This document shows positions 1,901 through 61,200 of a stretch of DNA of 64,000 bases, one piece after another; positions within the stretch are counted from its first letter, which is position 1; each line of letters begins with the position of its first letter. The DNA is from Candidatus Kerfeldbacteria bacterium. Its GTDB lineage: Bacteria; Patescibacteriota; Patescibacteriia; UBA9570; XYC2-FULL-38-9. The DNA lies in assembly GCA_016182555.1 (NCBI GenBank), contig JACPGJ010000008.1, positions 220,272-284,271 on the forward strand. Direction: 5' to 3'. Position numbers and translations under genes: made by a program. Under the pieces are notes generated by a model, which worked only from the letters and a program-made list of their open reading frames with translations, was not told the origin of the DNA and made no database searches.

Positions 1901-2158
1901 TCAGTTCTCCGTCGCAGCCTTGACCCGCAACGGGAAGATACCAACAGCCAGATAGACCAGCGTCGAACTGACGATTCCGATATCAAGGATGTAGGCCAGA
2001 ATCTGGGTCATGGTTGGTGAAATAACCCACCCCATCTTGAGAATAATCCTCTCGATCATGGTGGCCACGAGCTCGAACATTGGGAAAGTTATAATAACCC
2101 CCACGATAATGGCCACCACGAGACCAACGATAATCAGTACACGAGACTTGCTTGGCAT
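1901..2158 (-). CDS. small hydrophobic membrane protein (2 predicted TM helices)
   Basis: Track ORF 1901..2236 trimmed to the internal ATG (MPSKSRVLIIVGLVVAIIVGVIITF...). Hydrophobic profile only, no homology recognised. Confidence 0.3.
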   Translation of the reverse strand: MPSKSRVLIIVGLVVAIIVGVIITFPMFELVATMIERIILKMGWVISPTMTQILAYILDIGIVSSTLVYLAVGIFPLRVKAATEN

Positions 2159-2367
2159 CAGAACCTCCAGTGAGAAATGTCGCACTCGAGAATCGAGTCG
2201 ACCAAATAGTAAATCATAACCAAGCAGAAAAATCAAGGTTCACCTCAAATAATGGTTCTTCAGGAAAAGTTATGGGTAAAGGTTTAATTTTCCGCAGTGG
2301 AATAAGATTGCGATTCGGTAATTTTGGAAATTCATATCTAAATGTCTGAAAAATTTGGAGTCACTTT

Positions 2368-3537
2368 TTATCGATTTCCTTTTGCTCGATTGTGTGTTTT
2401 GCAGAGCATCTGGCAATTCTTGACCGAAGTAGCACCACCTTTACTCCAAGCTGCTACATGATCAGCGTCCATATCGCCTAAACTCCAAATCTTTTCCTTG
2501 TTGGCATCGTGTCTAAGAGCACAAAGGGGGCAGTTCGATTCTTTTTTCTTTTCGGCTTTTGTTGTTTGTATTTTGTATACTGATTTTTTTGTTGCTTCAT
2601 CAAAAACTCTAACATTCAGCAATTTCGTATCAGCAGAACCTCCTAAGATAAATTCAAAAATACCTTTGCGATTTTTAACATATGGATCGCCATACAGTTT
2701 TTGAACTTCTTCCGAAACCTTTTTTGGATTGTACGATTTTTTATGGTAAGCCTCATACAGTCGCCCCCACTCAAGTCCGCACATCTCGCTTTCTACGTCG
2801 GTAAATACGCTAGAAACCCAATCAATCACACTGTTGAAATATTTTTTCAATTCGGCAATATTTTTATCAAAACGATGACTACTCATGTAGTCTCCGATAT
2901 TACCTTTACTTACCCAATCGAGCGCACATTCCAGAAAATCCTGTCGATTTGCGCTACCTGATACATATGCACTCCATTTCTGAATGTTGGCGTTTTGGCT
3001 ATTGCTAAATTCTTCTTTTCCGAGTGTTACAAATGGCCCAGAATAGACGGCATTTAGTAACTCCTGATTATTGAGCGGGACACCGGCAATATTGATCGTT
3101 TTAAACCACTCTTTTATCTGGCTTTCTGTTCCTTCACATTCATAAATAAGTAATTTTGTTTCCAAAATCTTGGCTTTTTTATCCTTTGCCATCCCACTAA
3201 AATATTGTTCCATACCGTTTTCGTCTTTGATAGCAAATTTGTCAGTCACAAACCGCCCCACACTGGTGATACGCTGTTGCCCATCCAAAACTTCCAGCTT
3301 GTTTTCAGAAACCACATTAAAATAAATCAAACCTATTGGGTAACCTTTTAGTATCGATTCTATAACAGCAATTTCTCTTTTTCCACCATCGGAGGCATAG
3401 ATGTAGTTACGCTGATACTCCGGCTGAATAGTGAGCGAGCCCGCCAAACCGAACAACCCTTTACCTTCCAGTTCATTATAGACAAATCCTTCGCAAATAT
3501 CTTTGACGGTGATATCGGTTTTTAAAGTTGTTTTCAT
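2368..3537 (-). CDS. DUF262 (ParB-like NTPase/nuclease, DGQQR motif) fused to a C-terminal HNH nuclease; GmrSD-like type IV restriction architecture
   Basis: N-terminal [12 protein letters not shown] (ParB/Srx DGQQR). C-terminal [10 protein letters not shown]...[15 protein letters not shown] (HNH His-Me finger). Track start at 3558 is TTG; the ATG at 3535-3537 (MKTTLK...) is used here. Confidence 0.7.
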
Positions 3538-3567
3538 CTTATTATTTTTTAAAATCAAAATTAATGA

Positions 3568-4626
3568 CTAATTTTTATCTTTTATTTTTTTCTCTACCTT
3601 TTTTTCTAATTGCGCAAAACGATCGAAATCACTTTCAAATAATTGATCTTGCACAATACGATACCTCTCGAATTCTGTCTCAGCAAACTCCTTGGCAAGT
3701 TCGTGTGCAACTTTGCCCGCATCAGAAAGAATCTCTCGATCTGTCATCCGAATAAATCGATCAAGCCGCTCAGCCCAATCTGCCATCGTCATTGGAATGT
3801 GGCGCGTTGCCATATCTTCCGCAATATCCAGATATGCAGAAACCATACGTTCAAGAGAAAAAAGTTCTTTTTCTGTCAAATAGTTTTTTGCCACAAAAAC
3901 ATCAAATTTTTGAATCTTTCCGTGCGGGGAATCTTTCCAGCTCGTCAATCCCATGTGATCTTTTTCAGCGCTTGCTCGCGACATAATCACTTCAGCTGCT
4001 GTTTGCCCATGAATCGCCCAGTGTAGTTTATTTTGCACGGTTGCAAAAAATTTTTTGGTCGTTTCTGCAGTTTTGTCGTAATCAATGGCCGTTGCATAAA
4101 TATCCGTGATCTTTTGATAGAATTTTCTCTCTGATAATCGAATTTCTCGTATACGAGAGAGTAACTCTTCGAAAAATTGCTTGGTAAGAATGGTTCCGCC
4201 ATTTTTCAAACGTTCATCGTCCATGACAAAACCCTTGATCGTAAACTCTTTGACAATATCGCGCGCCCATTTCCGAAACTGCACGGCTCGCTCGTTCTCT
4301 ATTTTAAAACCAACTGATATAACGACTTGCAAACTGTAGTGGTCTACATTGTATTTTTTACCATCCGTAGCAGTTATTAAGTATTTCTTAATAACTGAAC
4401 TGTCGACTTCGCCATCTTCCATAAGCTTTTTAAGATGCTGATTTACTGCCGATACGGACACACCATAGAGCTCTGCAATTAATTTCTGTGTAAGCCATAA
4501 GTTTTCATCTTCATAACGCAGTTCAACCGCTGTTTCTTGTTTACCGATTGCGGAAACATAAGTCAAATACTCCGCAGCCGATGAACGAATCGTAATGCCT
4601 CTCGTCTTTTTCTTTATTTTTATCAT
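3568..4626 (-). CDS. RhuM family (virulence-protein RhuM / Fic-associated DNA-binding domain) protein
   Basis: N-terminal ENLWLTQKLIAELYGVSVSAVNQHLKKL and the overall RhuM pattern; paralogous to the N-terminal half of 11588..12595. ATG at 4624-4626 checked. Confidence 0.6.
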   Translation of the reverse strand: MIKIKKKTRGITIRSSAAEYLTYVSAIGKQETAVELRYEDENLWLTQKLIAELYGVSVSAVNQHLKKLMEDGEVDSSVIKKYLITATDGKKYNVDHYSLQVVISVGFKIENERAVQFRKWARDIVKEFTIKGFVMDDERLKNGGTILTKQFFEELLSRIREIRLSERKFYQKITDIYATAIDYDKTAETTKKFFATVQNKLHWAIHGQTAAEVIMSRASAEKDHMGLTSWKDSPHGKIQKFDVFVAKNYLTEKELFSLERMVSAYLDIAEDMATRHIPMTMADWAERLDRFIRMTDREILSDAGKVAHELAKEFAETEFERYRIVQDQLFESDFDRFAQLEKKVEKKIKDKN

Positions 4627-4776
4627 ATTATTCTATAGTTGATTAATCACAAGCCATGCCGTCTCACCCTCAATACGCACCTAAATCCGCGGTGCCCCGT
4701 CCGAGCCTTCATAGATAATCATCCCGCCGGAATTATTATTTGTCATAGTATTTTGATCTTGTTTACTCATAATTTT

Positions 4777-5937
4777 TTACTTGTCGCAAATATATTTGAC
4801 AGTAATGTTGGTGTTTAAACATGATTTTAAATAATTCATCAAACAATGTCTTACAATATTTTCAAACCAATACGTGTAAGGTAATTTTTGAGAAGGAGGA
4901 AATTTACGATTATCAATCATCATTCCTAAAGACGGATCGGTATCCCACTTACCAGCGCCATGCATAAACTGACTAAGATACATAGGCTCACCAGAATGCA
5001 AATAACCTGATCGGCTATTATAAATTGTAGCCAAAACATCTGGTAAATTTTTCCTTGTAATCTTTACATGTTTAGCTTTCCAATTTCCACCCCTCAAACA
5101 ACCCTTTGAAAAATCGGTAATAAATCTGATAAATTTCTGCTTTGATTTTTCAATCAGAATTTTATCTTGTTTGTTCACCTTCAATATCTCTTTCAATTGT
5201 TTTTCCTGCTTCTTTGACAGCTTTTTTGATGTTCCAAATAAATTTGAAAACTTTTCGCCATCAAGCGGATTATCCTGCTTGTTCAGTTTATAACCTTGCG
5301 ACAAGGTTTCAATTGCTGAAACTAAACGAATAAATACCATTTCGCTATCCATGCCAACCTCTTTAAGCGATCGTGCATAGTGATAGCAAGCTAGGATAAA
5401 GCTTTGATGTTTTTGGTTATTTAACTCCCGTATCGTATTCAAAAAATCAGATAATCCTTTTGCAAAATTTCTTCCGCCTTCACTAAAAATCCTGGGGTGT
5501 ACACCTTTTACTGTCTTTTTATACAAAAACTCCTGTTCCATTTTTATTTTCAAACCATGATTCGTCAATTCGCCATGATATGTTGCAACGATGTAAAATC
5601 TGCATTGAAAATAAAGAGAAAATATGGCGAGTAATTCGCCAATTATGCCATCTTTAAAATAGTAGCCCCTCTTATCTGCTTTATCATTGTAGCCGCCTTC
5701 ATACTTAGGATATTGAACACGTAACAGGTAGTGATAGAGGCCATTCTTGTCTTGCTCTAAGGAAAAACCACCGCAAATTAATTTTTTATTTTCATAATCA
5801 AGTACGCCAGGTATATAACACTCACTCGCGAACTCATATTCATAATAATACGTTTCATCACTGGATTCAGGTAATTTTTCCACATTTCTAATCCACGCCA
5901 TTCGATTGTCATTATGTTTATTTAATTCATTTGCCAT
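4777..5937 (-). CDS. hypothetical protein; candidate restriction endonuclease partner of the adjacent MTase
   Basis: 386 aa, no recognisable motif. Ends 22 nt upstream of the start of... i.e. immediately downstream (same strand) of the EcoRI-family MTase, the classic R-M gene arrangement. ATG verified at 5935-5937. Confidence 0.35.
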   Translation of the reverse strand: MANELNKHNDNRMAWIRNVEKLPESSDETYYYEYEFASECYIPGVLDYENKKLICGGFSLEQDKNGLYHYLLRVQYPKYEGGYNDKADKRGYYFKDGIIGELLAIFSLYFQCRFYIVATYHGELTNHGLKIKMEQEFLYKKTVKGVHPRIFSEGGRNFAKGLSDFLNTIRELNNQKHQSFILACYHYARSLKEVGMDSEMVFIRLVSAIETLSQGYKLNKQDNPLDGEKFSNLFGTSKKLSKKQEKQLKEILKVNKQDKILIEKSKQKFIRFITDFSKGCLRGGNWKAKHVKITRKNLPDVLATIYNSRSGYLHSGEPMYLSQFMHGAGKWDTDPSLGMMIDNRKFPPSQKLPYTYWFENIVRHCLMNYLKSCLNTNITVKYICDK

Positions 5938-5958
5938 AAAATTTTTATCTCCAAAAAG

Positions 5959-7083
5959 TTATTTTTTCTTGTGTTTGATAAAAATTCGTTTGTACTGCTT
6001 TTTACCGTTTACATATGGCTCATTATGTTTTTTGAAATGTGGTAATTTGTATTTTTCATCAACTGCACCATTATCACTTGCTCCAAGAACTTCAAACTGA
6101 TCAGGGTTATATTTATCTAAAAAAGTAATCGGCACACCCATTACACCTTTGTAATCACTTGGTATTGAATCAGTAAAAGGCACTTCTATGGCATCATAAT
6201 TGTCATAATGATCGTACGACTCTTTGCCCTTTATTTCTTTGTGTTTGCTATATTTCAAATTCTCCCCCATGGTCATAAGTGGCAATGGTTGATGACGACG
6301 TCCGTGGTCAAGATTAGTAAGCCATAAACAACTATTAGTGGCAACAATTCTATCGCCATTTTCATCTATTCTAGCTTCTGTTCCATACAAATCGTAGGAT
6401 TTAGGTACAATAAATCCAGAAATCCATCTTCCCATTCCATTACCAAGCCATATTTCATTATTTTTAATTTTTTGAAATACTTCTTTATAAGTTATGCAAT
6501 TAATATTTCCAATAATTAAAAACTTTTTGTTGTAATCAAAAAGTTGCTTCACATACTCACGAAACAGACTGAACGGTGGGTTTGTTACAACAACGTCGGA
6601 TTGTTTAAGTAGATCTACACATTCATCGCTACGAAAATCGCCGTCACCCTCTAGGGGCGTCCACTCGTTATGTTTGTTTGCCTTTAACTGCTTGGCAACA
6701 TCCTTCAAGTTGAACTCACCATCGCCATCGATGTCGCCCACTTCGTTGATAATAAATTTGTTGGCATTTATCTTCGGACGCCCTTTTGATTTTATGAGAG
6801 TTTTATCATCACCAAACAACCCTAGTTGCGTGTTGGCTACGGGCGAGGGTTTGTAGCTGGTGGTGATAAGCTGTTTTAATCCAAGCTTGTTGAAATTGAG
6901 CACGAAATAGCGAAAAAAATTGCTCTCAAACGGATCGTCGCAGTTGCAATACACTACCTTGCCACGGAATACATCGGCGTTGTATTCCAAATACGCTTCA
7001 ATCTCTTTTTGAATATCAATATATTGAGTATAAAACTCATCATTCTTTGCTCGTTTTGCATTTGTAAGGTTATTGTTTGCCAT
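5959..7083 (-). CDS. N6-adenine DNA methyltransferase, EcoRI-methylase family
   Basis: N-terminal KNDEFYTQYIDI (DEFYT signature of the EcoRI_methylase family) and VVTNPPF (motif IV NPPF). ATG at 7081-7083. Confidence 0.75.
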   Translation of the reverse strand: MANNNLTNAKRAKNDEFYTQYIDIQKEIEAYLEYNADVFRGKVVYCNCDDPFESNFFRYFVLNFNKLGLKQLITTSYKPSPVANTQLGLFGDDKTLIKSKGRPKINANKFIINEVGDIDGDGEFNLKDVAKQLKANKHNEWTPLEGDGDFRSDECVDLLKQSDVVVTNPPFSLFREYVKQLFDYNKKFLIIGNINCITYKEVFQKIKNNEIWLGNGMGRWISGFIVPKSYDLYGTEARIDENGDRIVATNSCLWLTNLDHGRRHQPLPLMTMGENLKYSKHKEIKGKESYDHYDNYDAIEVPFTDSIPSDYKGVMGVPITFLDKYNPDQFEVLGASDNGAVDEKYKLPHFKKHNEPYVNGKKQYKRIFIKHKKK

Positions 7084-32440: not shown

Positions 32441-32688
32441 AATAACATCTTATAAAATAATTATGAATTTTATAGCATATAATTATCAAAAAAACAATCC
32501 TCTTTTCGTACTCCGTATACTATAGCTATAATTAACCAATTATCTTACTAAACCAAATGAGAATCACTGTCTAAAAATGGGGTACTTGCCACCCTTAAAA
32601 GCAATCTGATATTCACAGAATTGCTCGTAAAGATTTTGGATGTGCATATATGTTCGCGTTACTGCGAAAGTGATATGCTCAAGTTTGT

Positions 32689-32959
32689 TGGAGCCGTTGT
32701 GCGGGATCGAACCGCAGACCTCATCCTTCGTTTACACCTCACTTTATTGAAACACGTATGTGAGGACTAGACTGTATCTTTCCGCCAGAGGCGGACTCCT
32801 TGTCAGTCGTTCGGGCGAATACATTTCTGTATCGCCACGGTCTTGACCATGTGTCTGGTTATTAACCGTAATTCGGAGTTCATCTTGCATGTTGCCATAC
32901 AAGCGGGCAGACTTTTACAAGCCACCATGGATGTGCTCTACCAACTGAGCTACAACGGC
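32689..32959 (-). tRNA. tRNA-Thr (anticodon GGU) interrupted by a 195-nt intron after U36; CCA encoded
   Basis: Exon 1 GCCGTTGTAGCTCAGTTGGTAGAGCACATCCATGGT (32959..32924); exon 2 AAGGATGAGGTCTGCGGTTCGATCCCGCACAACGGCTCCA (32728..32689). Acceptor GCCGTTG/CAACGGC, D arm GCTC/GAGC, anticodon stem CATCC/GGATG. Spliced loop AUGGUAA. Confidence 0.7.
32729..32923 (-). ncRNA. putative group I intron (self-splicing, no ORF) in the tRNA-Thr anticodon loop
   Basis: Hand-folded elements in canonical order: P1 GGU|GG with CUGCC, with a U.G pair at the splice site. P2 CUUGUAUG-GCAA-CAUGCAAG. P3 ACUCC/GGAGU. P4 ACGGU/ACCGU. P5 ACCA-GACACA-UGGU. P6 GGCGAUACA-GAAA-UGUAUUCGCC. P7 GACUG/CAGUC. P8 CCGCC-UCUG-GGCGG. 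S-element-like AAGAUACAGUC. P9 CCUCAC...GUGAGG. The intron ends in G. Confidence 0.55.
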
Positions 32960-33032
32960 AAATGTGCGCAGAGAAAATTGACACAAAAGAACAGATGCAC
33001 AATATACTGGCGTAAAAATACGCCAGCGTATT

Positions 33033-33824
33033 CTACATCTCTTTCACCAATTTTTCAAATTCGGTAATTTTTTGGTTTTCGGGGTTGGCTTCTTTCAATT
33101 GACGCAACGTCGTACGCGCCAATATGCGATCTTTCATTTCAATAGCAAGCGCCAACAATGAATCTAAATTACGCGGGTTATTCGGCGCCAGCTTCACGCA
33201 CACCTTAAAATACGCCAACGCTTTTTTTTGTAATCCTTGCGACTGATACACTGTTCCTAAATCATAGTAAATACGATCTTCTTTTGGGCGCAACTTACGC
33301 GCAAACTCTAACGTTTCAATAGCGTGGTCATATTCTTTTTTCTGCGAATATAATTCCCCTAAATATTCGTACGCTTCCACTTCTTTTGGGTTCAGGCGAA
33401 TAATATCTAAAAACAGGTGCTCGGCCTCCGCCAACTTTCCTTCTTTATATAATGCGACAGCCGATTCCATAATGCTGGCAATTTTTTGGCGTGTCTTTTC
33501 TTTCTCTTCTTGCGTGGCTGGCGTGGGCATCGCGTGTCGGTATTTCCGCTCCAATTCCACAATTTTTTCATACCAACGAGAAAAATGTTTCACCACCGCA
33601 TCTTTTGCCGGGGAAATTCCTTTTGCGGCAGCATTTCGAGCGTCTTTCGCTTTTCGTTGTAAGCGTTCTTCAATTAACTGATATTTTTTTGAACGCTGCT
33701 TTGCTTTTGGCATGGCATCTAAATCAAGCAAACGCAATTTGTTCCAATACTTCACCACCAAACCAACCATACAGAACAACGCCGCAACGCCGATACCGAT
33801 AATAACCCAATCAATCCATGTCAT
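33033..33824 (-). CDS. membrane-anchored tetratricopeptide-repeat protein
   Basis: N-terminal TM helix and TPR-like repeats (AYEYLGELYSQKKEYDHAIETLEFARKLRPKED...). Confidence 0.6.
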   Translation of the reverse strand: MTWIDWVIIGIGVAALFCMVGLVVKYWNKLRLLDLDAMPKAKQRSKKYQLIEERLQRKAKDARNAAAKGISPAKDAVVKHFSRWYEKIVELERKYRHAMPTPATQEEKEKTRQKIASIMESAVALYKEGKLAEAEHLFLDIIRLNPKEVEAYEYLGELYSQKKEYDHAIETLEFARKLRPKEDRIYYDLGTVYQSQGLQKKALAYFKVCVKLAPNNPRNLDSLLALAIEMKDRILARTTLRQLKEANPENQKITEFEKLVKEM

Positions 33825-47638: not shown

Positions 47639-49891
47639 CTAGACCAACGGCGCTTCAAATGTCTGATCTGCGGTATCATCCGCTACTGGAGGCGGAACGA
47701 CGGAAGCAGTAGGGACGGATTCGGCTGGAACCGCGGATTTCACCACGGGTTGTGCCGCTGACTTCGTAGCAGGCTTTGGGGCGGGACCGGCGATCTCCGC
47801 TTCCACGTCACCTAGCGGCGTGGCATATTTTCGGCGACTTGCGGCAATACACTGCTCCGCAATACCACTCTTGAAATCTGGGTCAGCGACATCTGCACTC
47901 ATGGCACTAAACGCTGGTGTCACCACACCATCAATCGAAATCTTCAAATACATTTCGCGAACACCCAAATTCATAATATCATAGGCTGAAAAACGTGGCG
48001 CAAATTCGTTGGCCACATATTGCGCGTCTTCGGCACCTAAACGAAAGGTAATCATGGAACCGACATTACCAAACACCGTTTCACGCGTTGCCGGCAACAA
48101 TTGTCCCAAATACTGATGCGACACCGTTAAATTCAAGCGATATTTACGCGCTTCAGACAAAATATTATCAAACGTCTTCGTAGCGAAATTTTGAAACTCA
48201 TCGACGTACAAGTAAAAATCTTTACGCTCGTCTGCGGAAACCAATGCCCGCGCCATAATATGCTGTTCAATTTTCGTAATAATTAACGAACCAAGCAATG
48301 CCGAATTTTCTTCTCCCAACTTCCCCTTAGATAATTCCACCAACAAAATACGTTGGTTATTCATAATGTCATCAAAATCCACTTTGTTCATTTGCTGGGC
48401 CACAATATTGCGCACCATTTCGTTCGACAAAAATTGACCCAGCTTGTTCACTAACGGAACAATCGCTTCATTATCAAATTTTTCTGACCAACTGGAAAAT
48501 TCATTTGCCCAGAATTTTTTCACCACATGATCTTGAATTTCCGCAATCACTGCTTGGCGGTAAGATCGATCAGTCAACATTTGCTGCATGCCCATGATCG
48601 TCGCTTTATGATAATCGAGCAACGCGAGAATGGTAAAACGAAATACATGTTCGATTTTCGGTGACCAATCTGCACCAAAAAATTTCTTAAAAATTTCAAT
48701 CATTCCCTGCGCCACTTGCTGTTTTAAATCGCGCGAAACATTCGCAATCGGGTTAAAGGCAATCGGAAATTCTAAATCTGATGGGCTGAAATAGACCACA
48801 TCTTCGGTGCGCTCTTTCGGCACATGGTACAACAGCGCTTGAATCAAGTCGCCATGAGGATCAATCACACACACCCCTTTGCCAGCCACGATATCATTGA
48901 TAATTAACTTTTCCAACAATTTACTTTTGCCAACACCACTCTTCCCAACAATATATAAATGGCGACGACGGTCGACACGCTTAATACCAAATTCCACAGC
49001 CGTACCACGAAAATTGGTAACACCAAAACGCGACAGCTCCGCAGGCGAAGTATTTTTTAACGTCGGTAAATTCATCGGCGGTTCAGCTTTGCGCGAATAG
49101 ACCCAATTGACGCCACGAATTTTTGAAACCGGGTCCGGTGCGTGAAATAGCAACGCTAACTCTTCGGTATTGACCATTCCACTCGAACGCTGCGCATGGG
49201 AAAAGTAATCATTCACCAACGTTTGGGTATCAGGAAATACATTCACCCGTAAATATTTTTGTTCCGTAGCGAGTGGGCTAAACACATGCTGCAACGTGGA
49301 TGTCGTGATTTCCGGATCTTCAGATCCATCCGTAAAATACAACATTCTCACCGTCGCTTGGAAATGTGGCTTTTCATCTTCCCGTACTTCTTTCTCCACA
49401 ATACTGTACATACTTCCCTCTTCTGCGACCATCGATTCATCAATCGGGCTCAAAATGAGTTGATAAAAAATAGCATCGTGCGAAGAAACCTGCGCAAAGG
49501 TGTTGAACAACACGTTCAGCGGATCTTCAGAAAATGTTTCGGCAGAACGCAAATGCACCGCTTCACTACCAACCAAACGCACCTTTAAACCTACAGCTTG
49601 CGGTGGCACATTCGCGATATCAATATACTGATCCACTTCCTGAATGTGGGTATCTGGAAAAAGTGCAAATAAAAATGCCATCACGGCATTCACTAATGGT
49701 CGTGGGCAAATGATATAAAAATTGATCGCTCCATGAATTTGCACAATTTCCACCGAAATACTAGCAGTGTTAGCGACCAATAAATGAAAAATATTATAAA
49801 ACAACAATTCGAATTGTTTGATACGAGCGAGTGGCGGCTTTCCGGAATCTTCGAACGGAAACCGCAAATGCAACATGGTGGCATTATTCAT
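47639..49891 (-). CDS. TrwB/TraD/VirD4-like (type IV coupling protein family) P-loop ATPase with ~300-aa N-terminal domain and Pro-rich C-terminal tail
   Basis: GKSGVGKSKLLEKLIINDIVAGKGVCVIDPHGD (Walker A, then (R/K)G..V(I/V)DPxGD as in TrwB); Walker B YLYVDEFQNF; no N-terminal TM segments. Confidence 0.55.
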   Translation of the reverse strand: MNNATMLHLRFPFEDSGKPPLARIKQFELLFYNIFHLLVANTASISVEIVQIHGAINFYIICPRPLVNAVMAFLFALFPDTHIQEVDQYIDIANVPPQAVGLKVRLVGSEAVHLRSAETFSEDPLNVLFNTFAQVSSHDAIFYQLILSPIDESMVAEEGSMYSIVEKEVREDEKPHFQATVRMLYFTDGSEDPEITTSTLQHVFSPLATEQKYLRVNVFPDTQTLVNDYFSHAQRSSGMVNTEELALLFHAPDPVSKIRGVNWVYSRKAEPPMNLPTLKNTSPAELSRFGVTNFRGTAVEFGIKRVDRRRHLYIVGKSGVGKSKLLEKLIINDIVAGKGVCVIDPHGDLIQALLYHVPKERTEDVVYFSPSDLEFPIAFNPIANVSRDLKQQVAQGMIEIFKKFFGADWSPKIEHVFRFTILALLDYHKATIMGMQQMLTDRSYRQAVIAEIQDHVVKKFWANEFSSWSEKFDNEAIVPLVNKLGQFLSNEMVRNIVAQQMNKVDFDDIMNNQRILLVELSKGKLGEENSALLGSLIITKIEQHIMARALVSADERKDFYLYVDEFQNFATKTFDNILSEARKYRLNLTVSHQYLGQLLPATRETVFGNVGSMITFRLGAEDAQYVANEFAPRFSAYDIMNLGVREMYLKISIDGVVTPAFSAMSADVADPDFKSGIAEQCIAASRRKYATPLGDVEAEIAGPAPKPATKSAAQPVVKSAVPAESVPTASVVPPPVADDTADQTFEAPLV

Positions 49892-49893
49892 AA

Positions 49894-52074
49894 CTATAGG
49901 TCTAATGGTGCTGCTGTTGATTGAGAAGAATGTTGCAAAGACGATGAGCTGCCTCCAGCACCAGCTGGTTGTTGGCCGCCACCTCCACCACCACTTTTCT
50001 TACGACGCCTTCGACGACGCTTCGCACTCGCACTCGTTTGTCCTGAAGCCGGCGATTGGCTTTGACCTGAACGTTGTGTTTGCGGCTGGGGTTGACGTTG
50101 GGGCGGACGAGAGAGTGGCGGTTGATCTTGACCTTGAGGAATATGGGCTGCTTGTGGCCGAACTTGCGTTGGCTTTGCTGGAGATTGTGGTGCAGATTGT
50201 TGTGGAAGCATCTGCGGCAAGACAACACGTTGCGGTTGGTTCCCGCTGGGTGTCGCCGATTGTGGTGACTGAGATGCGGAACGTACTGGCTGAGGTTGAA
50301 TTTGAACCTGTCGTGGCGCTTGTGGCTGTGGTCGCGGTGAAGGTTGCGGTTGGACTTGCGCACGATGTTGTACTGGTTGAGGCTGACGTTGGGCTGGTCG
50401 CGGCGACTGCGATTGAGGTTGACGCGATTGTTGTGGTTTGCGATCCAATTTCTGGGGCATGGATTTCTGTGGTGAAGGTGTAGGAGCGAGAACTACTGCT
50501 GGTGATGACGAAGGAAACCCGGATAAAAAATTAATTTCTCTATCTCGAAGTTCATCAATGTCATTTTGTGGCCGTGCTATCGTTGCTGCTTTCGGTGCTT
50601 TCGGTGGTGGAGGCGGTGCCGCTAGGCCCTTTTTTTTATTCAATTGTTCTGTTTCCGCTGCTCCTTCATTCTTTTCTTGCTGTTTTTCATCTTCTGTTTT
50701 TGTGTTCGTCATGGGCTCATCCACAGTATCGGCTTCATCAATGTCAACGTTAATATCAGACCACTTCATAATATTTTCTTCTACCGCGGCACGATTTTTT
50801 GCATATCGCTCACGCGACAACTGAATGACTTTTTCTTTATTTCCCGTTTCTCCCGTCAGCGGCGGTAAGGTGCTCGCAGAAAATGGGCTGGAAGAAACAC
50901 CATCAATCATCAAACGCAAATAAATATGATGTGCGGGTAGTGTTACTAAATCTTCTTGCATAAATGTTGGCTGGAATTCCTTTTCTAATTCCTCCGCATC
51001 CGCTGCACCCACACGAAACGCAATTAACGTACCCACATTACCAAATACGGCTGGAGCCACTACCTCGTTGAGCTGTTCAATATATTGGTGAGCCAAAATT
51101 AAATCCAGCCGATATTTTCGCGCCTCAGATAAAATGCCCGCAAAGGATTCGGTTGCAAAATTTTGAAACTCATCGACGTACAAATAAAAATCGCGCCGTT
51201 CTTTTTCCGGAATATTCACACGGCTCATAGCAGCCAGTTGCATTTTGGTAATCATCATCGCCCCAAGCAGCGCCGAATTTTCTTCACCAATGCGACCTTT
51301 GGCTAAATTCATCAGTAAAATTTTCCCAGAATCCATCAATTCACGCATATCAATTGTACTGCGGGTTTGACCGACAATATTGCGAATCAACTGCGAAGAC
51401 AAAAATTGTCCCACTTTATTCTGAATCGGCGCAATCGCTTCATTGCGAAATTTTTCCGAATAGTTATTGTATTCGTTCACCCAAAATGAACGCACGACCG
51501 GGTCGGTAATTTTTTTCAATATTTTTTTTCGATACCGTGTATCCACCAACATGCGTGTCACCCCCAGCAAGGTGGACCCGGGGTTTTCTAACAACGCCAA
51601 AATCGTGTTAATCAAAATATATTCCAAGCGGGGGCCCCACGAATCGGCCCAAATCTTTTTAAATACACCCACTAACCCATTCGATACCAGATTTTTATAT
51701 TCCGGGCTAACACTTTCCAAAATATTAAACGCAATGGGATAATCCAAATCTGCTGGGTTAAAATAGACCACATCATTAATACGGTTGTTCGGAACAAAGT
51801 TCACCACTTTTTCTACTAAGTCTCCGTGCGGGTCAACGACTGCCAAACCACGACCTTCGCGAATGTCTTGAATAATCATATTTTCCAACAACGTCGATTT
51901 GCCCATACCGGTTTTCCCAATCATGTACATGTGGCGCCGACGATCATCTTCCTTAATACCAAAACTACGGAACTCATTCCGAAAATTTGTTTGCGCAAAT
52001 ACCACTGGCTTATCCTGGTGTGGTGGAATCGATGCCGGGGCGGGTTGATCGTTTGGTGGCAATGGTTTATCCAT
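49894..52074 (-). CDS. paralogous TrwB/TraD-like P-loop ATPase with ~280-aa Pro/Gln-rich low-complexity C-terminal tail
   Basis: GKTGMGKSTLLENMIIQDIREGRGLAVVDPHGD, YLYVDEFQNF; 2 nt from the upstream paralog. Tail PQPQ.../RRRRRRKKSGGGGGG. Confidence 0.55.
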   Translation of the reverse strand: MDKPLPPNDQPAPASIPPHQDKPVVFAQTNFRNEFRSFGIKEDDRRRHMYMIGKTGMGKSTLLENMIIQDIREGRGLAVVDPHGDLVEKVVNFVPNNRINDVVYFNPADLDYPIAFNILESVSPEYKNLVSNGLVGVFKKIWADSWGPRLEYILINTILALLENPGSTLLGVTRMLVDTRYRKKILKKITDPVVRSFWVNEYNNYSEKFRNEAIAPIQNKVGQFLSSQLIRNIVGQTRSTIDMRELMDSGKILLMNLAKGRIGEENSALLGAMMITKMQLAAMSRVNIPEKERRDFYLYVDEFQNFATESFAGILSEARKYRLDLILAHQYIEQLNEVVAPAVFGNVGTLIAFRVGAADAEELEKEFQPTFMQEDLVTLPAHHIYLRLMIDGVSSSPFSASTLPPLTGETGNKEKVIQLSRERYAKNRAAVEENIMKWSDINVDIDEADTVDEPMTNTKTEDEKQQEKNEGAAETEQLNKKKGLAAPPPPPKAPKAATIARPQNDIDELRDREINFLSGFPSSSPAVVLAPTPSPQKSMPQKLDRKPQQSRQPQSQSPRPAQRQPQPVQHRAQVQPQPSPRPQPQAPRQVQIQPQPVRSASQSPQSATPSGNQPQRVVLPQMLPQQSAPQSPAKPTQVRPQAAHIPQGQDQPPLSRPPQRQPQPQTQRSGQSQSPASGQTSASAKRRRRRRKKSGGGGGGQQPAGAGGSSSSLQHSSQSTAAPLDL

Positions 52075-56395: not shown

Positions 56396-58102
56396 TTATT
56401 TATCGTGTTGTTTCATCTTGCGTACGCCAAACCAAGCCACATTGTTAATACGGAACAGACCAAGCAGATTGCGAGTGATGGTGATGGCAGAGAACATACT
56501 GACCACAATACCAATCGCCAGTGTAATAGCAAAACCGCGAATGAGTGAAGACCCAAACCAGTACAAAATGAGACAAGTAATCAACGATGACGCATTTGAA
56601 TCGCGAATAGATGTCCACGCACGCTTGAATCCATCATGAATACTTTGGCTTACCGGTTTGCCACTGCGCAATTCTTCTTTCATGCGTTCAAAAATGAGTA
56701 CGTTCGCATCCACCGCCATACCGATAGAGAGAATAAAACCCGCAATACCCGCAAGCGTAAGGGTTACTGGCCAGAGTTTAAAAATAGCGAGCACGAGTAA
56801 TGAATAGATACAGAGGGCAATAACCGCCATAAACCCGGGCAAGCGATAATACACGGTCATGAAAATAGACAAGAGGAATAGCCCAAGGACGCCCGCGAAT
56901 AAACTGCGTTCAATAGATTCTTGACCAAGGGTAGGACCAATATTTTGCTGGCTAATTAAGGTAATGGGTACCGGCAGTGCGCCAGCATTCAGGCGTTGCG
57001 CTAACTGCTTAGCTTCTTCTAAGGTGAAGCTACCAGAAATAACCGCTTCTCCCGTATTAATCTCTTGCTGCACAACTGGTGCACTAATAATTTTATTATC
57101 TAAATAGATCGCCACTGTTTTCCCCACATTGTCACGGGTAATTTGAGCAAACAAATCTTTTCCCTCGTCATTAAACTTTAAGCTGACTGTTGGTAAGCCC
57201 GTGTTGGGTTCAAAGGTGACATCAGCACGATCAAGTTGTTCACCAGTGAGAGCAGTGTCAACATAATTTGGGCCGTTTTGCGCGGGTGTTTCTGGAATTT
57301 TACGCAATAGAATATGGTGTGCCGTCGCTTTTGCATTCACCGCTTCTTGCGCTGGCTGGTCCCCTTCTGCGGGTTTGGCTGGTACCGCATCTGTGCGGCT
57401 ATCGACACGAATAATATGATAACCAAAATCCGTTTCCACAATTTCTGGGTAAATTTTACCAACCTCTGCCTTAGTAAATACCACATCATCAAATGGCGGA
57501 ACTGTATCGCCCTGCTCAAATTCATCTAACACACCGCCTTTATCTTTTGAACCGGGGTCTTGCGAATTTTCGCGAGCGATTGCTTCAAAATCGGCACCTT
57601 CCGCTTGGGCCTGTACTAACAAACTTTCTGCTGTTTGCTTGGTCTCTTCATTTTTCTTGCGAATTTGTTCTTTTTGTTCGTCGGTATATTCTGGCGGTGG
57701 ACCTTCCGTTTTAAATGCCAAAGTCGGTGTTTCGCCAATGCGGGCAATCGCTTGAGAAATATCGGTTACGCCAGGCAATTCTACCAGCACACGCCAAGAT
57801 TCATTAGAACGAGTGGTTTGAATAGTCGGCTCACTCACACCAAAAGCATTGATTCGGTTTTCAATCACATCACGAACACCATCAAGTGCACCTTGCTGGT
57901 CAGCGACATCAATGTTCGAAACATCAGCGTCATATAATAAAGAAACACCACCTTGCAAATCAAGACCGAGTTGCACTTTGAGTTCACGCTGAATGTTACC
58001 AATATGTAGATTTGGACCTTTTGGATAATCCACAACGCCTGCCAAAACAGTTAACGCCAAAATACCCAATAACCCTAACCGAATTTTTGTCCGCATTTTC
58101 AT
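56396..58102 (-). CDS. secD: protein translocase subunit SecD with a parvulin-type PPIase domain inserted in the periplasmic P1 head
   Basis: SecD core (LGLDLQGGVSLLY, VIENRINAFGVSEPTIQ, IYLDNKIISAPVVQQEI, C-terminal TM bundle). An insert AESLLVQAQAEGADFEAIARENSQDPGSKDKGGVLDEFEQGDTVPPFDDVVFTKAEVGKIYPEIVETDFGYHIIRV aligns almost residue by residue with E. coli PpiC. Confidence 0.8.
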   Translation of the reverse strand: MKMRTKIRLGLLGILALTVLAGVVDYPKGPNLHIGNIQRELKVQLGLDLQGGVSLLYDADVSNIDVADQQGALDGVRDVIENRINAFGVSEPTIQTTRSNESWRVLVELPGVTDISQAIARIGETPTLAFKTEGPPPEYTDEQKEQIRKKNEETKQTAESLLVQAQAEGADFEAIARENSQDPGSKDKGGVLDEFEQGDTVPPFDDVVFTKAEVGKIYPEIVETDFGYHIIRVDSRTDAVPAKPAEGDQPAQEAVNAKATAHHILLRKIPETPAQNGPNYVDTALTGEQLDRADVTFEPNTGLPTVSLKFNDEGKDLFAQITRDNVGKTVAIYLDNKIISAPVVQQEINTGEAVISGSFTLEEAKQLAQRLNAGALPVPITLISQQNIGPTLGQESIERSLFAGVLGLFLLSIFMTVYYRLPGFMAVIALCIYSLLVLAIFKLWPVTLTLAGIAGFILSIGMAVDANVLIFERMKEELRSGKPVSQSIHDGFKRAWTSIRDSNASSLITCLILYWFGSSLIRGFAITLAIGIVVSMFSAITITRNLLGLFRINNVAWFGVRKMKQHDK

Positions 58103-58294: not shown

Positions 58295-61200
58295 ATGCAA
58301 ATCTCTATTTTCTCCCTCATTATGTATCATTCCTGGTTAAGAAAAATCATTCTTGGCCTCAGCTTCATGGGCATGCTTTTTCTTTGTTCCGCTTCTTCAA
58401 CATTTGCCGCTACTTGGACAGTGAATTCTCCTGAAGATTCCAGTGACGGCAGCTGCACAATGCCCTATACCAACGTCAGCAACGATTGTACATTACGTGA
58501 AGCTGTGGCTGCAGCGAACGCCACGAGTGATGCTGATACGATTACCTTCAGTATCGATAGTTCATTTACATCGAATGCTTCATATTATGCGGATGGACAA
58601 TATACCATTACCCTTGCTTCTGCTGTCACAACTATTTCTGGTCCGACGACCATATCTGCCGCAAGCAGTTGGGATAGTACACACGATCGACCAGGAATTC
58701 GTTTATATAGCAGCAGTACGTCATTTAACGCCCTCACGTTTGGGAGTGGCGCAACGAACAGCCGTGTCTCGGCTCTTGAGTTGGCAGGATTCAATACCGC
58801 GATCACCGCAAGCGGAACAGGAATGACTATTGGAACGAATTGCGATGGAGTGGATGATTCCGCTGAACGAAATATTTTACATAGTGGCATTGTTGGCATT
58901 GCAGCCAACAGTGCGCAATTTCATATTACCGGAAATATCATTGGATTAGATGACGATGGCGACACCTATCGCGGATATAGCAAACAAAGTATCAATATCA
59001 CCGGTGCGGCAACCGATAACGGTATCATTGGTTTTCATGAAGGCAGTACCGGTAGTTGTTCAGCAGCGACACAACGCAACATCATTGCCGGGAGTACAGG
59101 TTCATTCGCAACAATTGCTGTCACTGGAACGGGAACCGCGAAACTTGCTGGCGATACCGCCCTTGGACCAGACCATATCAGTATTGCGGGAAATTATATT
59201 GGAGTCGATGTGACCGGAACCAAAAATCGCAGCGGAAAACAAAATAGCGGAACAGGAAGTGGCAGTGGGGTGGTTGTTTCAAACAACGCCACACTGAATT
59301 GGATCGGCACAGACGGAGATGGGCTTGATGATGAGCAAGAGCAAAATGTGATCGTATCCGCCAGTGTTGGTGTGAGTTTAAACAACGGCAATAATCGTGC
59401 AGCAGGAAATTATATCGGCGTGAATGCAATCGGAAACACAACCATGGGAAATACCATGTTGGTCGGCATTATTTTACGTGGCGTGAGTAGTATTGCTGGT
59501 TGGTGTGACACGAGTATTCATGCGGCACTCTGTTTTGATGGTGGATCCGAGACAAACCAACGAAATGTGGTGGGTGGGGCAACTTTAGAAGGCATACGAT
59601 TTGGTGTCGATGCCGATTCTTCTCTTATCTATGGAAATTATATTGGCGTAGGCGCCGATGGCACGAGCGATATTGGCAATACTACCGTTGGTGCTTTTGT
59701 GCATCGTGCATCCAAAAATAATCGTATTGGTGGTACGGGCTCACGCGCAAATGTGATAAAATTTAACGGCATCGGCATACAACTCAATGGCAGTTACACC
59801 GGCACGCCAACAACACGAGCGTCGCAGACACCGATGACGAACATTACCATTGCGGAAAATACCGTGACTAATAATGATACGATTGGCATTCAAGCCTATT
59901 GGACAGAAAATTATGACACGACGGTGGGCGTTGACAGTATTACGATCAATAATAACACCGTAGAAGATAATGGGACGATTGGTATTGATGTATGGGGATC
60001 TTCACCGACCATTGATGGGAATACGATTCGCGATAATGGCAGCTACGGCATGTCTATTCACCCTGCCTTCATTGCGTACAATACTTATACTGAAGCGGTG
60101 GAAAGTTATTCACCGGCAGACGCGGCTACGAATCTTGGTGCGTTTCCGATCGTTACGAATAATACGCTTGCCAGAAATGGCGCGGAGGCCATCTATCAAC
60201 TCGATGCATCAGCAGAAAATAGCAACACGTTGTATAGAGATAACACCTTTGGGGATACCAATGGTTTTTCCGCGATTGCACAAACATGGTATGGCGCATT
60301 GGAAATTCTTGATCGCGATGGAAACCCGATTCCAACGGCGACATGGACAAGTACCACAGGTATACTGACTCCCGAAGATACCGCTTTGCTCGATACAGCG
60401 CGGGAAACGAGCGCGGCAAATGATGTGAATGGAAGTGACATGGTTTTTGGTCCAAGCGGAATAAGCTACACAGATGTACGCACCTGGTTGGTGATGACTG
60501 CCTATACAGTCAGCGGTGACGGAACACAAACTGATTTTAATACTTATACTGTTCGCAGTGACGGAACGTATGCTGCCGGTGCAGCACATGCAACGACATA
60601 TACATTTGACGGACTCGATAATGAAACCGCGTATGCTGATGTGCTTCCCAATGGCATACAAACCGATGGAGTCTATCGATTTCAAATTGCCAAAGTGCGC
60701 GCGTCCACAATTCCTGAAACACCAATGAATAACACACCCAACGATGGGTCTATTGACCTGCCGCCAGCCAGCGTCACACTCCAAACTTCCATATTTAACG
60801 ATGCGGAAGAAACACATCAATCTTCAATTTGGCAAATTTTTTCTACGGTGGAAGCGTGTGATACAAATGGAACTGCAGATATATTCGATATCACTTCTTC
60901 TAGTGCGTTAACGAATCTCACGCTATCTGCTGATGTGCTCACGGAAGAAACAACGTATTTCTGGCATGTCGCATATATCAATTCCTACGACAACGTCAGC
61001 AATTTTTCTCCCTGTACATCGTTGACGACACTTCGTACAACACCAGCATTATCTTCCGCTATCCCTGATCAACAATGGAATGAGGACGAACAGTTGAATA
61101 ATGCGGTTGATTTAGATGATTATTTTACGGATGCTGAAGGAGAAACACTAACCTATACTGCAGTGGTGACCGACATGGAACACATGAATGTACGCATTGA

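What the first reader, a model, noticed from the sequence alone, without database searches (positions are those of the whole stretch)
32689..32959. tRNA-Thr(GGU) split by a 195-nt group-I-like intron inserted after U36
The two exon halves reconstruct a perfect 76-nt tRNA (including CCA) with anticodon loop AUGGUAA. The intervening 195 nt folds by hand into the full canonical group I order: P1 with a U.G pair at the 5' splice site, a GNRA-capped P2, P3, P4/P5, a GAAA-capped P6, P7 flanking a P8 hairpin, an S-element-like AAGAUACAGUC, P9, and a terminal G. Bacterial tRNA group I introns are classically known in Leu(UAA), fMet, Ile(CAU) and Arg(CCU), all after a U. A Thr(GGU) host with an intron after U36 fits that rule but is not a host I know of. 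The element is too small to carry a homing endonuclease. The same window also holds an intact tRNA-Thr(UGU).
Basis: seen in the sequence. Interest (0 to 1): 0.75.

Follow-up and report, generated by a model that had tools for sequence, protein, structure and literature searches.

The report
Known group I intron in tRNA-Thr(GGU)
The tRNA-Thr(GGU) gene really is split after its anticodon by a 195-nt group I intron, but this intron family, at this exact site, is already described and is common in Patescibacteria (CPR bacteria), so the find is sound but ordinary.

Summary
Observation confirmed. On the minus strand, 32959-32924 and 32728-32689 join into a perfect 76-nt tRNA-Thr(GGU). The 195 nt between them (32923-32729) lie between U36 and A37 (ARAGORN intron mode).

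The group I reading is supported. A covariance model built only from 76 homologous introns of other species hits the window once, end to end, at exactly these borders (156.5 bits, E~1e-52). The full P1-P9 fold, including the P3/P7 pseudoknot and P9.0, is 94.6% paired across 76 sequences against 75.4% in shuffles, and 36 of 47 pairs show compensatory changes. All 79 genome homologues end in G and follow U36.

Rfam's RF00028 misses the window and 18 tested relatives. That is a published false negative for this family.

The novelty claim fails. Williams 2020 lists a Thr.5Ug type. Nakagawa et al. [quoted passage not shown] I found more than 200 copies, almost all in this tRNA.

Self-splicing of this Thr family is still untested in vitro. 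Side finds: one copy inside a phage tape-measure gene, and a three-way covariation at the 3' end.

The parts
32924..32959 (-). 5' exon of tRNA-Thr(GGU): tRNA nt 1-36, ending in anticodon GGU. Its last three bases (32926-32924) form the exon side of P1.
   Evidence: ARAGORN -i; sequence
32729..32923 (-). 195-nt group I intron. It belongs to the Patescibacteria-type tRNA-Thr(GGU) 36/37 family.
   Evidence: Family covariance model R1, built without the window: 156.5 bits, E 1.6e-52, model positions 1-197, the only hit in the window. Covariation.
32689..32728 (-). 3' exon: tRNA nt 37-76 (A37 A38, 3' strand of the anticodon stem, variable loop, T arm, acceptor 3' strand, discriminator U, CCA).
   Evidence: ARAGORN -i
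32906..32908 (-). Internal guide sequence G16 C17 C18. It pairs with exon G34 G35 U36, with U36.G16 as the wobble at the 5' splice site. GCC(C) is invariant or nearly invariant in the family.
   Evidence: Sequence; invariant columns in A1
32910..32923 (-). P1 extension hairpin (intron 1-5 / 10-14) with loop L1 GUAA. L1 nt 6-7 (GU) are complementary to nt 193-194.
   Evidence: MFE fold; covariation
32884..32903 (-). P2 (21-28 / 33-40) capped by the GNRA loop GCAA.
   Evidence: All 8 pairs show compensatory changes, 91% paired. The L2 N covaries with a P8 pair.
32875..32878 (-). P3 5' strand (46-49, CUCC). It pairs with 125-128 (GGAG, 32796-32799) to form the pseudoknot with P7.
   Evidence: 93.7% paired; C-G to U-A double changes in 5 and 3 sequences
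32837..32869 (-). P4 (55-60 / 82-87) enclosing P5 (65-68 / 75-78), with A-rich J4/5 and J5/4.
   Evidence: P4 is invariant and 100% paired; all 4 P5 pairs show compensatory changes
32814..32836 (-). P6 (88-96 / 101-110, U106 bulged) capped by GAAA.
   Evidence: MFE fold; outer 4 pairs 95.6% paired with compensatory changes
32804..32810 (-). P7 5' strand: A114, bulged C115, G116-G120. G116-C154 is the presumed guanosine-binding pair.
   Evidence: P7 is 100% paired and nearly invariant in 73 sequences. The role in G binding is inferred from the canonical group I architecture.
32781..32795 (-). P8 hairpin (129-134 / 138-143, loop UCU).
   Evidence: 99% paired; the 129-143 pair has the highest mutual information in the alignment
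32769..32780 (-). J8/7 (AAGAUA) and the P7 3' strand (CAGUCU): the conserved S-like element AAGAUACAGUC.
   Evidence: Invariant in 76 homologues. It matches AAGAUAUAGUCC in bona fide tRNA group I introns.
32766..32767 (-). J7/9 G157 U158: P9.0 partner of A193 C194 (32730-32731), just before omega-G.
   Evidence: GC46/AU22 and CG45/UA22; 95.9% paired
32737..32765 (-). P9 (159-164 / 182-187) with a 17-nt loop.
   Evidence: All 6 pairs show compensatory changes, 92% paired
32729..32729 (-). Omega-G (G195), the last intron base.
   Evidence: G in 80/80 family members
33030..33058 (-). Promoter-like site (TTGAAA, 17 nt spacer, TAGAAT) about 70 nt upstream of the tRNA.
   Evidence: Consensus scan only; weak evidence
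32570..32594 (-). Terminator-like hairpin GGGUGGCAAGUACCC followed by a U run, about 95 nt downstream of the tRNA.
   Evidence: Consensus scan only; weak evidence

Best explanation
This is a functional tRNA-Thr(GGU) gene interrupted between U36 and A37 by a minimal, ORF-less group I intron of 195 nt. The intron belongs to the family already described in tRNA-Thr(GGU) of Patescibacteria.

Inferred mechanism:
1. The precursor folds so that exon G34 G35 U36 pairs with the guide G16 C17 C18 (P1, with a U.G wobble at the splice site).
2. The P4-P6 and P3-P8-P7 domains build the catalytic core.
3. A free guanosine bound at the G116-C154 pair of P7 attacks the bond after U36.
4. The terminal G195 is positioned by P9.0 (G157 U158 with A193 C194) and replaces the free guanosine.
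5. The 3'-OH of U36 attacks after G195 and joins the exons. The anticodon stem, rather than a P10 helix, holds the exons together.

The product is a 76-nt tRNA with anticodon loop AUGGUAA.

Shown here: the exon and intron borders, family membership, the covariation-supported secondary structure with two pseudoknots, the invariant core, and strict conservation of U-1 and omega-G. Inferred: the chemistry, self-sufficiency of splicing, and the role of individual nucleotides.
For: ARAGORN -i gives Thr(ggt) i(37,195) and a perfect spliced cloverleaf.

The MFE fold recovers 8 helices, z = -3.4.

79 homologues from different species in genome contigs all sit at Thr(GGU) 36/37, all end in G, and all 3' exons start with AA.

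RNAalifold on 76 homologues without the window gives 41 pairs, 29 of them compensatory.

Covariance model R1, built from those, hits the window only at 32729-32923(-), full length, 156.5 bits, E 1.6e-52.

The full structure with P3 and P9.0 is 94.6% paired against 75.4% shuffled. The covariation score is 0.507 against 0.158, and at most 0.106 when partners are slid. No shuffle in 500 reaches the observed values.

A core-only pattern with no tRNA bases finds more than 120 further copies in metagenomes, and 116 of 121 are demonstrably in Thr(GGU).

A family member in a phage tape-measure gene, removed by the same GGU|...G| rule, restores a 1516-aa ORF, and a Pfam SLT domain spans the junction.

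R1 also cross-hits neighbouring tRNA-Tyr group I introns with a canonical core.

Literature: Williams 2020 lists the Thr.5Ug type. Nakagawa 2026 Table 1 lists Thr(GGU) 36/37 introns that RF00028 does not detect and that ARAGORN miscalls as Arg(GCG) 34/35. I saw the same behaviour.
Against: Rfam RF00028 gives no hit even at E <= 10.

No splicing experiment exists for this Thr family. The in vitro assays in PMC13011429 used Asn and Asp 35/36 introns.

P10 is essentially absent, and P1 has only three exon base pairs.

No transcript data are available for this organism.

I could not run Williams' gpI_bact_tRNA.cm or the subgroup models here.
Confidence: 0.92

Rival explanations
1. The element is derived from a group I intron but does not splice on its own. 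It would need a host protein (a chaperone or maturase-like factor), or it would splice conditionally, so that it controls the supply of tRNA-Thr(GGU).
For: The family is minimal: 164-266 nt, a 3-bp exon P1, and no P10. It diverges enough from canonical introns to escape RF00028. No in vitro assay has been reported for the Thr family. The 3'-terminal dinucleotide has two mutually exclusive partners, L1 and J7/9, which would allow a switch. Nakagawa et al. speculate about regulatory roles.
Against: All catalytic-core hallmarks are conserved. Introns of similar size, such as Azoarcus at 205 nt (my own knowledge), self-splice efficiently. The related Patescibacteria Asn and Asp introns self-splice in vitro (PMC13011429). 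No conserved protein gene accompanies the intron.
Confidence: 0.06
2. This is a dead tRNA gene: a pseudo-tRNA disrupted by an unrelated insertion that is never removed.
For: Standard annotation tools do not call the gene. RF00028 gives no hit.
Against: Both exons are perfect, including the 7/7 acceptor pairs, the T loop and CCA. The same insertion at the same bond occurs in more than 190 independent sequences with intact exons. It carries extensive compensatory covariation, which requires selection on the RNA structure. No other Thr(GGU) gene lies in the 64-kb window.
Confidence: 0.01
3. This is a protein-spliced tRNA intron of the archaeal/eukaryal kind, cut by an endonuclease at a bulge-helix-bulge motif.
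For: It lies in the anticodon loop, close to the canonical 37/38 site.
Against: The position is 36/37, not 37/38. The intron folds into a covariation-supported P1-P9 group I core with U-1 and omega-G, not into a bulge-helix-bulge motif. The host context is bacterial. BHB introns are not reported in bacteria (PMC13011429 introduction).
Confidence: 0.01

Closest known systems
tRNA-Thr(GGU) 36/37 'divergent group I introns' of Patescibacteria/CPR (Castelle et al. 2018 Nat Rev Microbiol, as cited; tFind class in Williams 2020; Nakagawa et al. 2026 mSystems, PMC13011429)
   Same: The host tRNA and anticodon, the bond (U36|A37), the size range, the lack of an ORF, invisibility to RF00028, and the ARAGORN miscall as Arg(GCG)/His(GUG) 34/35 are all the same. 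The window scores 156.5 bits against a model of 76 such introns. Synteny places the window among Patescibacteria.
   Different: Nothing essential differs. The window copy is at most about 79% identical to any of the roughly 190 copies retrieved. It has C-G to U-A at one P3 pair and a one-base insertion there.
Rba53.Thr.5Ug in Williams 2020 (seed of gpI_bact_tRNA.cm)
   Same: The same tRNA isotype and the same insertion point (loop position 5, after ggU), with U-1 and omega-G. The J8/7-P7 element is AAGAUAUAGUCC.
   Different: Its core is IC3-like (AAAUUCGGGGAAA ... CAAUCCCGAGCCAAG). The window's core is CCGAAUUACGGUUAA ... CAAGACCGUGGCG ... CGAACGACUGACAAGG. These appear to be two lineages occupying the same site.
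Classical IC3 tRNA introns: Anabaena/cyanobacterial tRNA-Leu(UAA), tRNA-fMet, Azoarcus tRNA-Ile(CAU), Agrobacterium tRNA-Arg(CCU)
   Same: They are small, ORF-less group I introns in the anticodon loop after a U. The anticodon stem holds the exons, P1 is short, and GNRA loops dock on helices (L2 with P8 is suggested here by covariation).
   Different: The core sequence family differs. RF00028 detects IC3 introns, such as the L044 tRNA-Leu(CAA) intron at 60 bits, but not this family. Nakagawa et al. place the Thr introns in an IA clade on a long branch.
Patescibacteria tRNA-Asn/Asp 35/36 and tRNA-Tyr group I introns (IA; PMC13011429)
   Same: The phylum is the same, and the P3-P4-P6-P7 core segments are related. 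R1 cross-hits tRNA-Tyr introns at about 30 bits. The Asn and Asp introns were shown to self-splice in vitro.
   Different: The host tRNAs and the insertion bond (35/36) differ. They have the canonical GUAGAGACUAGA P7 strand, and some carry HNH homing endonuclease genes.
Group I introns in phage protein-coding genes (for example T4 td and nrdB, Twort orf142; my own knowledge)
   Same: One member of this very family interrupts a phage tape-measure / lytic transglycosylase ORF, and its removal restores the reading frame.
   Different: The window copy is in a chromosomal tRNA gene. No cultured phage in INPHARED carries a similar sequence.

Membership tests
Group I intron (general) | U.G wobble pair at the 5' splice site within P1 | tested here: met
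   U36 pairs with G16, flanked by G35-C17 and G34-C18. The guide GCC(C) is invariant or nearly invariant in 76 homologues. All 79 homologues have ...GGU| before the intron.
Group I intron (general) | Terminal guanosine (omega-G) at the 3' splice site | tested here: met
   G195 in the window. G in 80/80 genome copies and in the 107 auto-resolved metagenome copies.
Group I intron (general) | Helices in the order P1-P2-P3-P4-P5-P6-P7-P3'-P8-P7'-P9, with the P3/P7 pseudoknot | tested here: met
   MFE fold, RNAalifold and pair counts including the pseudoknot: 94.6% paired, 36/47 pairs compensatory, 0/500 shuffles as good.
Group I intron (general) | Guanosine-binding site: a conserved G-C pair in P7 next to a bulged nucleotide | tested here: met
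   G116-C154 is invariant (73/73), C115 is bulged, and A114-U155 closes the helix (AU70/GC3). G binding itself is inferred, not measured.
Group I intron (general) | Conserved J8/7-P7 (S) element and A-rich J4/5 and J3/4 joiners | tested here: met
   AAGAUACAGUC is invariant in the family and matches AAGAUAUAGUCC of curated tRNA group I introns. J3/4 is GAAUU and J4/5 is AAUAA.
Group I intron (general) | P9.0 pairing of the two bases before omega-G with J7/9 | tested here: met
   157-194 is GC46/AU22 and 158-193 is CG45/UA22. 70 of 72 sequences form both pairs.
Group I intron (general) | Significant match to the Rfam Intron_gpI model (RF00028) | tested here: not met
   No hit at E <= 10 in the window, and none at gathering score in 18 relatives. 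This is a documented false negative for the family (PMC13011429). It is a detection criterion, not a structural one.
Group I intron (general) | GTP-dependent self-splicing | not testable with these tools
   This needs an in vitro transcript or RNA-seq. Indirect support: a family member in an ORF must be removed exactly at the predicted bonds to restore an SLT domain.
Patescibacteria tRNA-Thr(GGU) 36/37 intron family | Host is tRNA-Thr(GGU), with insertion between U36 and A37 | tested here: met
Patescibacteria tRNA-Thr(GGU) 36/37 intron family | Sequence-and-structure homology to other members | tested here: met
   R1 was built without the window: 156.5 bits, full length. Members score 125-184 bits.
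Patescibacteria tRNA-Thr(GGU) 36/37 intron family | Detected by gpI_bact_tRNA.cm (tFind) | not tested
   The model file exists as a supplement, but an external covariance model cannot be run with these tools.
Patescibacteria tRNA-Thr(GGU) 36/37 intron family | Host organism is a Patescibacterium | tested here: inconclusive
   The neighbouring tsf, rpsB and TPR genes best match (34-57%) the same neighbours in Patescibacteria-labelled MAG loci.
IC3 subgroup (classical bacterial tRNA introns) | IC3 core consensus (AAAUUCGGGGAAA ... CAAUCCCGAGCCAAG ... GUAGAGACUAGA) and detection by RF00028 | tested here: not met
   The window core differs throughout P3-P4-P6-P7, and RF00028 is silent.
IA subgroup (assignment by Nakagawa et al.) | P7.1/P7.2 helices between P7 and P3', or a best hit to IA subgroup covariance models | tested here: inconclusive
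   In my fold J7/3 is only 4 nt (ACAA), so there is no P7.1/P7.2. The subgroup models could not be run. The assignment rests on PMC13011429.

The most novel reading that the evidence does not exclude
The family may be a mobile, minimal ribozyme that targets the short motif GGU|A wherever it occurs. It sits in tRNA-Thr(GGU) in hundreds of CPR genomes and in a phage tape-measure gene in L242, so phages could be its vector. It may also use a two-state switch not described for group I introns. In that switch the L1 loop and J7/9 carry the same dinucleotide and compete for the two bases before omega-G. L1 would hold the 3' splice site next to P1, in place of the missing P10, and P9.0 would then dock omega-G for exon ligation.
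Probability: 0.2. Interest if true: 0.45.

Novelty: already known. Interest (0 to 1): 0.2.

Why it matters
The practical value is for annotation. Default ARAGORN, Rfam and, by published report, tRNAscan-SE miss this gene. The genome would then appear to lack tRNA-Thr(GGU), and tRNA-based completeness scores would be too low. This problem is already known for Patescibacteria (PMC13011429; PMC8172020).

Biologically, this is one more instance of a widespread and well-conserved intron family. It does not change what is known.

Open questions remain for the family as a whole. Self-splicing has not been shown for the Thr introns. The dual complementarity of the 3' end is unexplained. It is also unclear how the same intron reached a phage structural gene.

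Tried and rejected
1. Rfam at gathering score on the window and at E <= 10 on 32500-33150 gave no Intron_gpI hit. I did not take this as refutation, because 18 clear relatives are also missed and the literature reports the same.

2. I tried to identify the exact source organism. The neighbouring TPR protein is on record only on one 2-kb Logan contig. No retrieved intron is more than about 79% identical to the window's. The phylum is therefore inferred from synteny only.

3. My first P3 included A45-U129. Mutual information showed that U129 pairs with A143 in P8, so I dropped that pair.

4. RNAalifold suggested that L1 nt 6-7 pair with the 3' end. I kept this as a side observation only, because J7/9 (canonical P9.0) fits slightly better, at 70/72 against 66/72.

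5. blastn of the intron against cultured phages (INPHARED) found no match.

6. I tried to tie locus L048 (CP011209.1, Wolfebacteria) to GCA_001029635.1 of Nakagawa's Table 1 through their supplement. Only class labels were available (two Paceibacteria, one Saccharimonadia), so the link is unproven.

7. Williams' Table 1, which lists the 21 types, is an image. The Thr.5Ug type was confirmed from the seed alignment instead.

8. Pseudogene and BHB-intron readings were considered and rejected (see the rival explanations).

Full report
**1. What is in the sequence**

The feature lies on the minus strand.
- Bases 32959-32924 are the first 36 nt of a tRNA, ending in U33 G34 G35 U36.
- Bases 32728-32689 supply A37 A38, the 3' strand of the anticodon stem, the variable loop, the T arm, the acceptor 3' strand, discriminator U and CCA.
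- ARAGORN run with intron search calls tRNA-Thr(ggt) i(37,195). The joined 76-mer is a flawless cloverleaf.
- The intron is 32923-32729 (195 nt). Its borders cannot be shifted, because the bases flanking each junction differ.
- Default ARAGORN and Rfam see only tRNA-Trp, tRNA-Thr(UGU) and tRNA-Tyr elsewhere in the window.

**2. Is it a group I intron?**

Rfam's Intron_gpI gives no hit, even at E <= 10 on a 651-nt slice.

*Folding.* MFE folding gives -59.9 kcal/mol (z = -3.4, 0/200 shuffles as good). It recovers a P1-extension hairpin, a GCAA-capped P2, P4, P5, a GAAA-capped P6, P7, P8 and P9. P3 is a pseudoknot and is invisible to that program.

*Homologues.* I scanned one genome per species for a tRNA-Thr(GGU) 5' half followed by a base other than A (GCTCARNNGGTAGAGCNNNNNNNTGGTB).
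- ARAGORN -i finds a 176-266-nt intron in about 80 of them. It calls them Thr(ggt) i(37), or Arg(gcg)/His(gtg)/Leu(gag) i(35), or Pro(ggg) i(36).
- Re-registering all of them to U36|A37 shows one family: 79/79 introns end in G, 79/79 3' exons begin with AA, and the termini are conserved.
- The odd ARAGORN calls arise because the introns end in CG, UG or AG.

*Independent model.* A MAFFT alignment of 76 homologues without the window (A1) has long invariant blocks:
- CCGAAUxACGGUUAA
- AGACCGU
- CGAACGACUGACAAGG
- AAGAUACAGUCUA

RNAalifold on it predicts 41 pairs, 29 with compensatory double changes. A covariance model built from A1 (R1) hits the 64-kb window once, at 32729-32923(-). The hit covers model positions 1-197 and scores 156.5 bits, E 1.6e-52.

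*Full structure.* On the model-guided alignment of 77 hits (A2) I counted pairs for the full hand structure. Mutual information then corrected it: nt 129 pairs with 143, extending P8, and P3 is 46-49/125-128. The corrected structure contains P1-ext, P2, the P3 pseudoknot, P4, P5, P6, P7, P8, P9.0 and P9.

| Measure | Observed | Control |
|---|---|---|
| Cells paired | 94.6% | 75.4% (shuffled) |
| Covariation score | 0.507 | 0.158 (shuffled); at most 0.106 (partners slid by 1-3 columns) |
| Pairs with compensatory changes | 36 of 47 | 25.8 (shuffled mean) |
| Shuffles reaching the observed value | 0 of 500 | on every measure |

P4 and P7 are invariant.

*Hallmarks.* All group I hallmarks that can be read from sequence are present:
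- the U36.G16 wobble in a 3-bp exon/guide helix;
- omega-G;
- the P3/P7 pseudoknot;
- a G-C pair in P7 (G116-C154) beside a bulged C115;
- J8/7-P7' AAGAUACAGUC, compared with AAGAUAUAGUCC in curated tRNA introns;
- P9.0.

*Links to recognised introns.* R1 also cross-hits, at about 30 bits, introns in neighbouring tRNA-Tyr(GUA) genes of two loci. These have the canonical GUAGAGACUAGA...GAUAUAGUCC core. RF00028 misses all 18 family members I tested, yet it finds an IC3-type tRNA-Leu(CAA) intron in one of the same loci. The Rfam miss is therefore a property of that model, not of the element.

**3. Host specificity and an unexpected member**

Of the 121 cores:
- 107 resolve automatically to ...UGGU|intron...G|A;
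- nine more visibly follow CCAUGGU;
- four lie on truncated contigs;
- one is different.

The exception is the single viral hit, L242 (IMGVR_UViG_3300015613_000310), which scores 97.4 bits with R1. There the intron (5926-6119, 194 nt) follows ...CAGGU inside a tape-measure-like gene.
- Removing it by the family rule fuses two ORFs into one of 1516 aa reading ...ESGGNPRAINLW...KGLLQV|IDPTFRAY....
- Pfam's SLT transglycosylase domain spans the junction.

This checks the predicted splice bonds in a protein-coding host, independently of the tRNA. It also suggests that the 3-bp guide recognises GGU in any context.

**4. Organism and context**

Window GC is 40.5%.
- The tRNA gene is flanked by a TPR protein, RicT/PSP1, a short EF-Ts and S2.
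- These genes best match (34-57% identity) the same neighbours of intron-bearing tRNA-Thr genes in MAGs labelled Patescibacteria, Saccharibacteria, Doudnabacteria and Moraniibacteriota.
- The window also has a T4SS-like VirB4/VirD4 pair and many proteins with no family match.

I infer a Patescibacterium, without a marker phylogeny.

A promoter-like site (33058-33030) and a terminator-like hairpin (32594-32580) bracket the gene. Both are weak, consensus-only evidence.

**5. Comparison with what is known**

- Williams 2020 (bioRxiv 10.1101/2020.01.27.920355) raised the number of tRNA group I intron types from 4 to 21. Its seed alignment contains Rba53.Thr.5Ug (exon ggU | intron), although that seed has an IC3-like core.
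- Nakagawa et al. 2026 (PMC13011429) list three complete Patescibacteria genomes with Thr(GGU) 36/37 introns. RF00028 does not detect them, ARAGORN miscalls them as Arg(GCG) 34/35, and tFind finds them. The paper calls them 'divergent group I introns', after Castelle et al. 2018, and places them on a long branch in an IA clade.
- Those genomes are two Paceibacteria and one Saccharimonadia, the classes that dominate my loci.

The window's element is a further member of this published family. Its host and site are not new.

The published splicing assays used Asn and Asp 35/36 introns. The Thr family itself has not, to my knowledge, been assayed.

**6. Mechanism**

The best-supported mechanism is standard group I self-splicing. 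Exogenous G attacks after U36. Omega-G195, docked through P9.0, then takes its place, and the exons are ligated while the anticodon stem holds them together. The architecture and its conservation are shown here. The chemistry and its autonomy are inferred. Rivals are rated low: cofactor-dependent or regulated splicing 0.06, pseudogene 0.01, BHB intron 0.01.

**7. Side observation on the 3' end**

The two bases before omega-G are complementary both to J7/9 (70/72 sequences) and to L1 loop nt 6-7 (66/72). This holds across five dinucleotide states (GC/GC/GC 30, GU/GU/AC 13, AC/AC/GU 7, AU/AU/AU 4, UC/UC/GA 1, and others). The two pairings cannot coexist. They may mark two conformations, and L1 may stand in for the missing P10. 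This is speculation.

Separately, the variable base of the L2 GNRA loop covaries with a P8 pair, which suggests an L2-P8 contact.

**8. Verdict**

The group I interpretation is supported. The novelty is not: the kind is already known and abundant. Interest is low (0.2). The residual value is a documented annotation blind spot and two small leads, the phage-borne copy and the dual 3'-end complementarity.

Noticed in passing
L242:5926-6119 (+), IMGVR_UViG_3300015613_000310: A member of the same intron family (R1 97.4 bits) sits in a phage tape-measure-like gene, not in a tRNA. Removing it after ...CAGGU and after its terminal G fuses ORFs 1814-5925 and 6120-6558 into a 1516-aa protein, and a Pfam SLT domain spans the junction. 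This suggests mobility between phage genes and tRNA-Thr through a GGU|A target.
   Followed up: partly
window 32917-32918 (L1 nt 6-7), 32766-32767 (J7/9 nt 157-158), 32730-32731 (nt 193-194); alignment A2: There is a three-way covariation. The dinucleotide before omega-G is complementary both to J7/9 (P9.0, 70/72) and to the L1 loop (66/72), across five sequence states. The two pairings are mutually exclusive, so this may be a conformational switch or a P10 substitute.
   Followed up: partly
window 32894 (C30 of L2 GCAA) and 32793/32783 (P8 pair 131-141): The variable base of the L2 GNRA tetraloop covaries with a P8 base pair (MI 0.89). This suggests a tetraloop-helix tertiary contact between L2 and P8.
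   Followed up: no
L017:7675-7866 (-), L071:7209-7410 (-), L044:1907-2126 (+): Several Patescibacteria loci carry a second intron-split tRNA next to tRNA-Thr. These are tRNA-Tyr(GUA) with a 185-192-nt group I intron (missed by RF00028 at gathering score) and tRNA-Leu(CAA) with an IC3-like intron (RF00028 60 bits).
   Followed up: partly
L051 (NZ_LWBP01000002.1, Niastella populi CCTCC AB 208238 contig10) and window 47639-52074: A genome labelled as a Bacteroidota isolate carries the CPR-type Thr intron (178 bits). Nearby are T4SS-like VirB4/VirD4 proteins 43-47% identical to those of the window. This could be horizontal transfer, or a CPR epibiont contig in the assembly.
   Followed up: no
L063 and L083 (MAG SRP192515_co1_29, labelled Gammaproteobacteria); L067; L088 (labelled Bdellovibrionales): MAGs with non-CPR labels carry the family intron. 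One MAG has two different copies on two short contigs, and L083 shares the window's TPR-tsf-rpsB synteny. These are probably mis-binned or mislabelled Patescibacteria contigs.
   Followed up: no
L119:about 6183-6260 (+); L034; L120: Intron-less tRNA-Thr(GGU) genes occur with C or U instead of A at position 37. In L119 ARAGORN reads a four-base anticodon 'ggtc' in a Thr-like tRNA that lies directly upstream of a normal tRNA-Thr(GGU).
   Followed up: no
window 2368-3558 (-), 56396-58102 (-), 58295-62938 (+): Other genes in the window include a GmrSD-N/HNH nuclease, a SecD protein with an inserted PPIC-type peptidyl-prolyl isomerase domain, and a 1547-aa beta-helix/Ig-like/DUF11 surface-type protein.
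   Followed up: no
window 32689-32959 (-): This is an annotation blind spot. Default ARAGORN and the Rfam tRNA and intron models all miss this gene, so the genome would be scored as lacking tRNA-Thr(GGU).
   Followed up: yes
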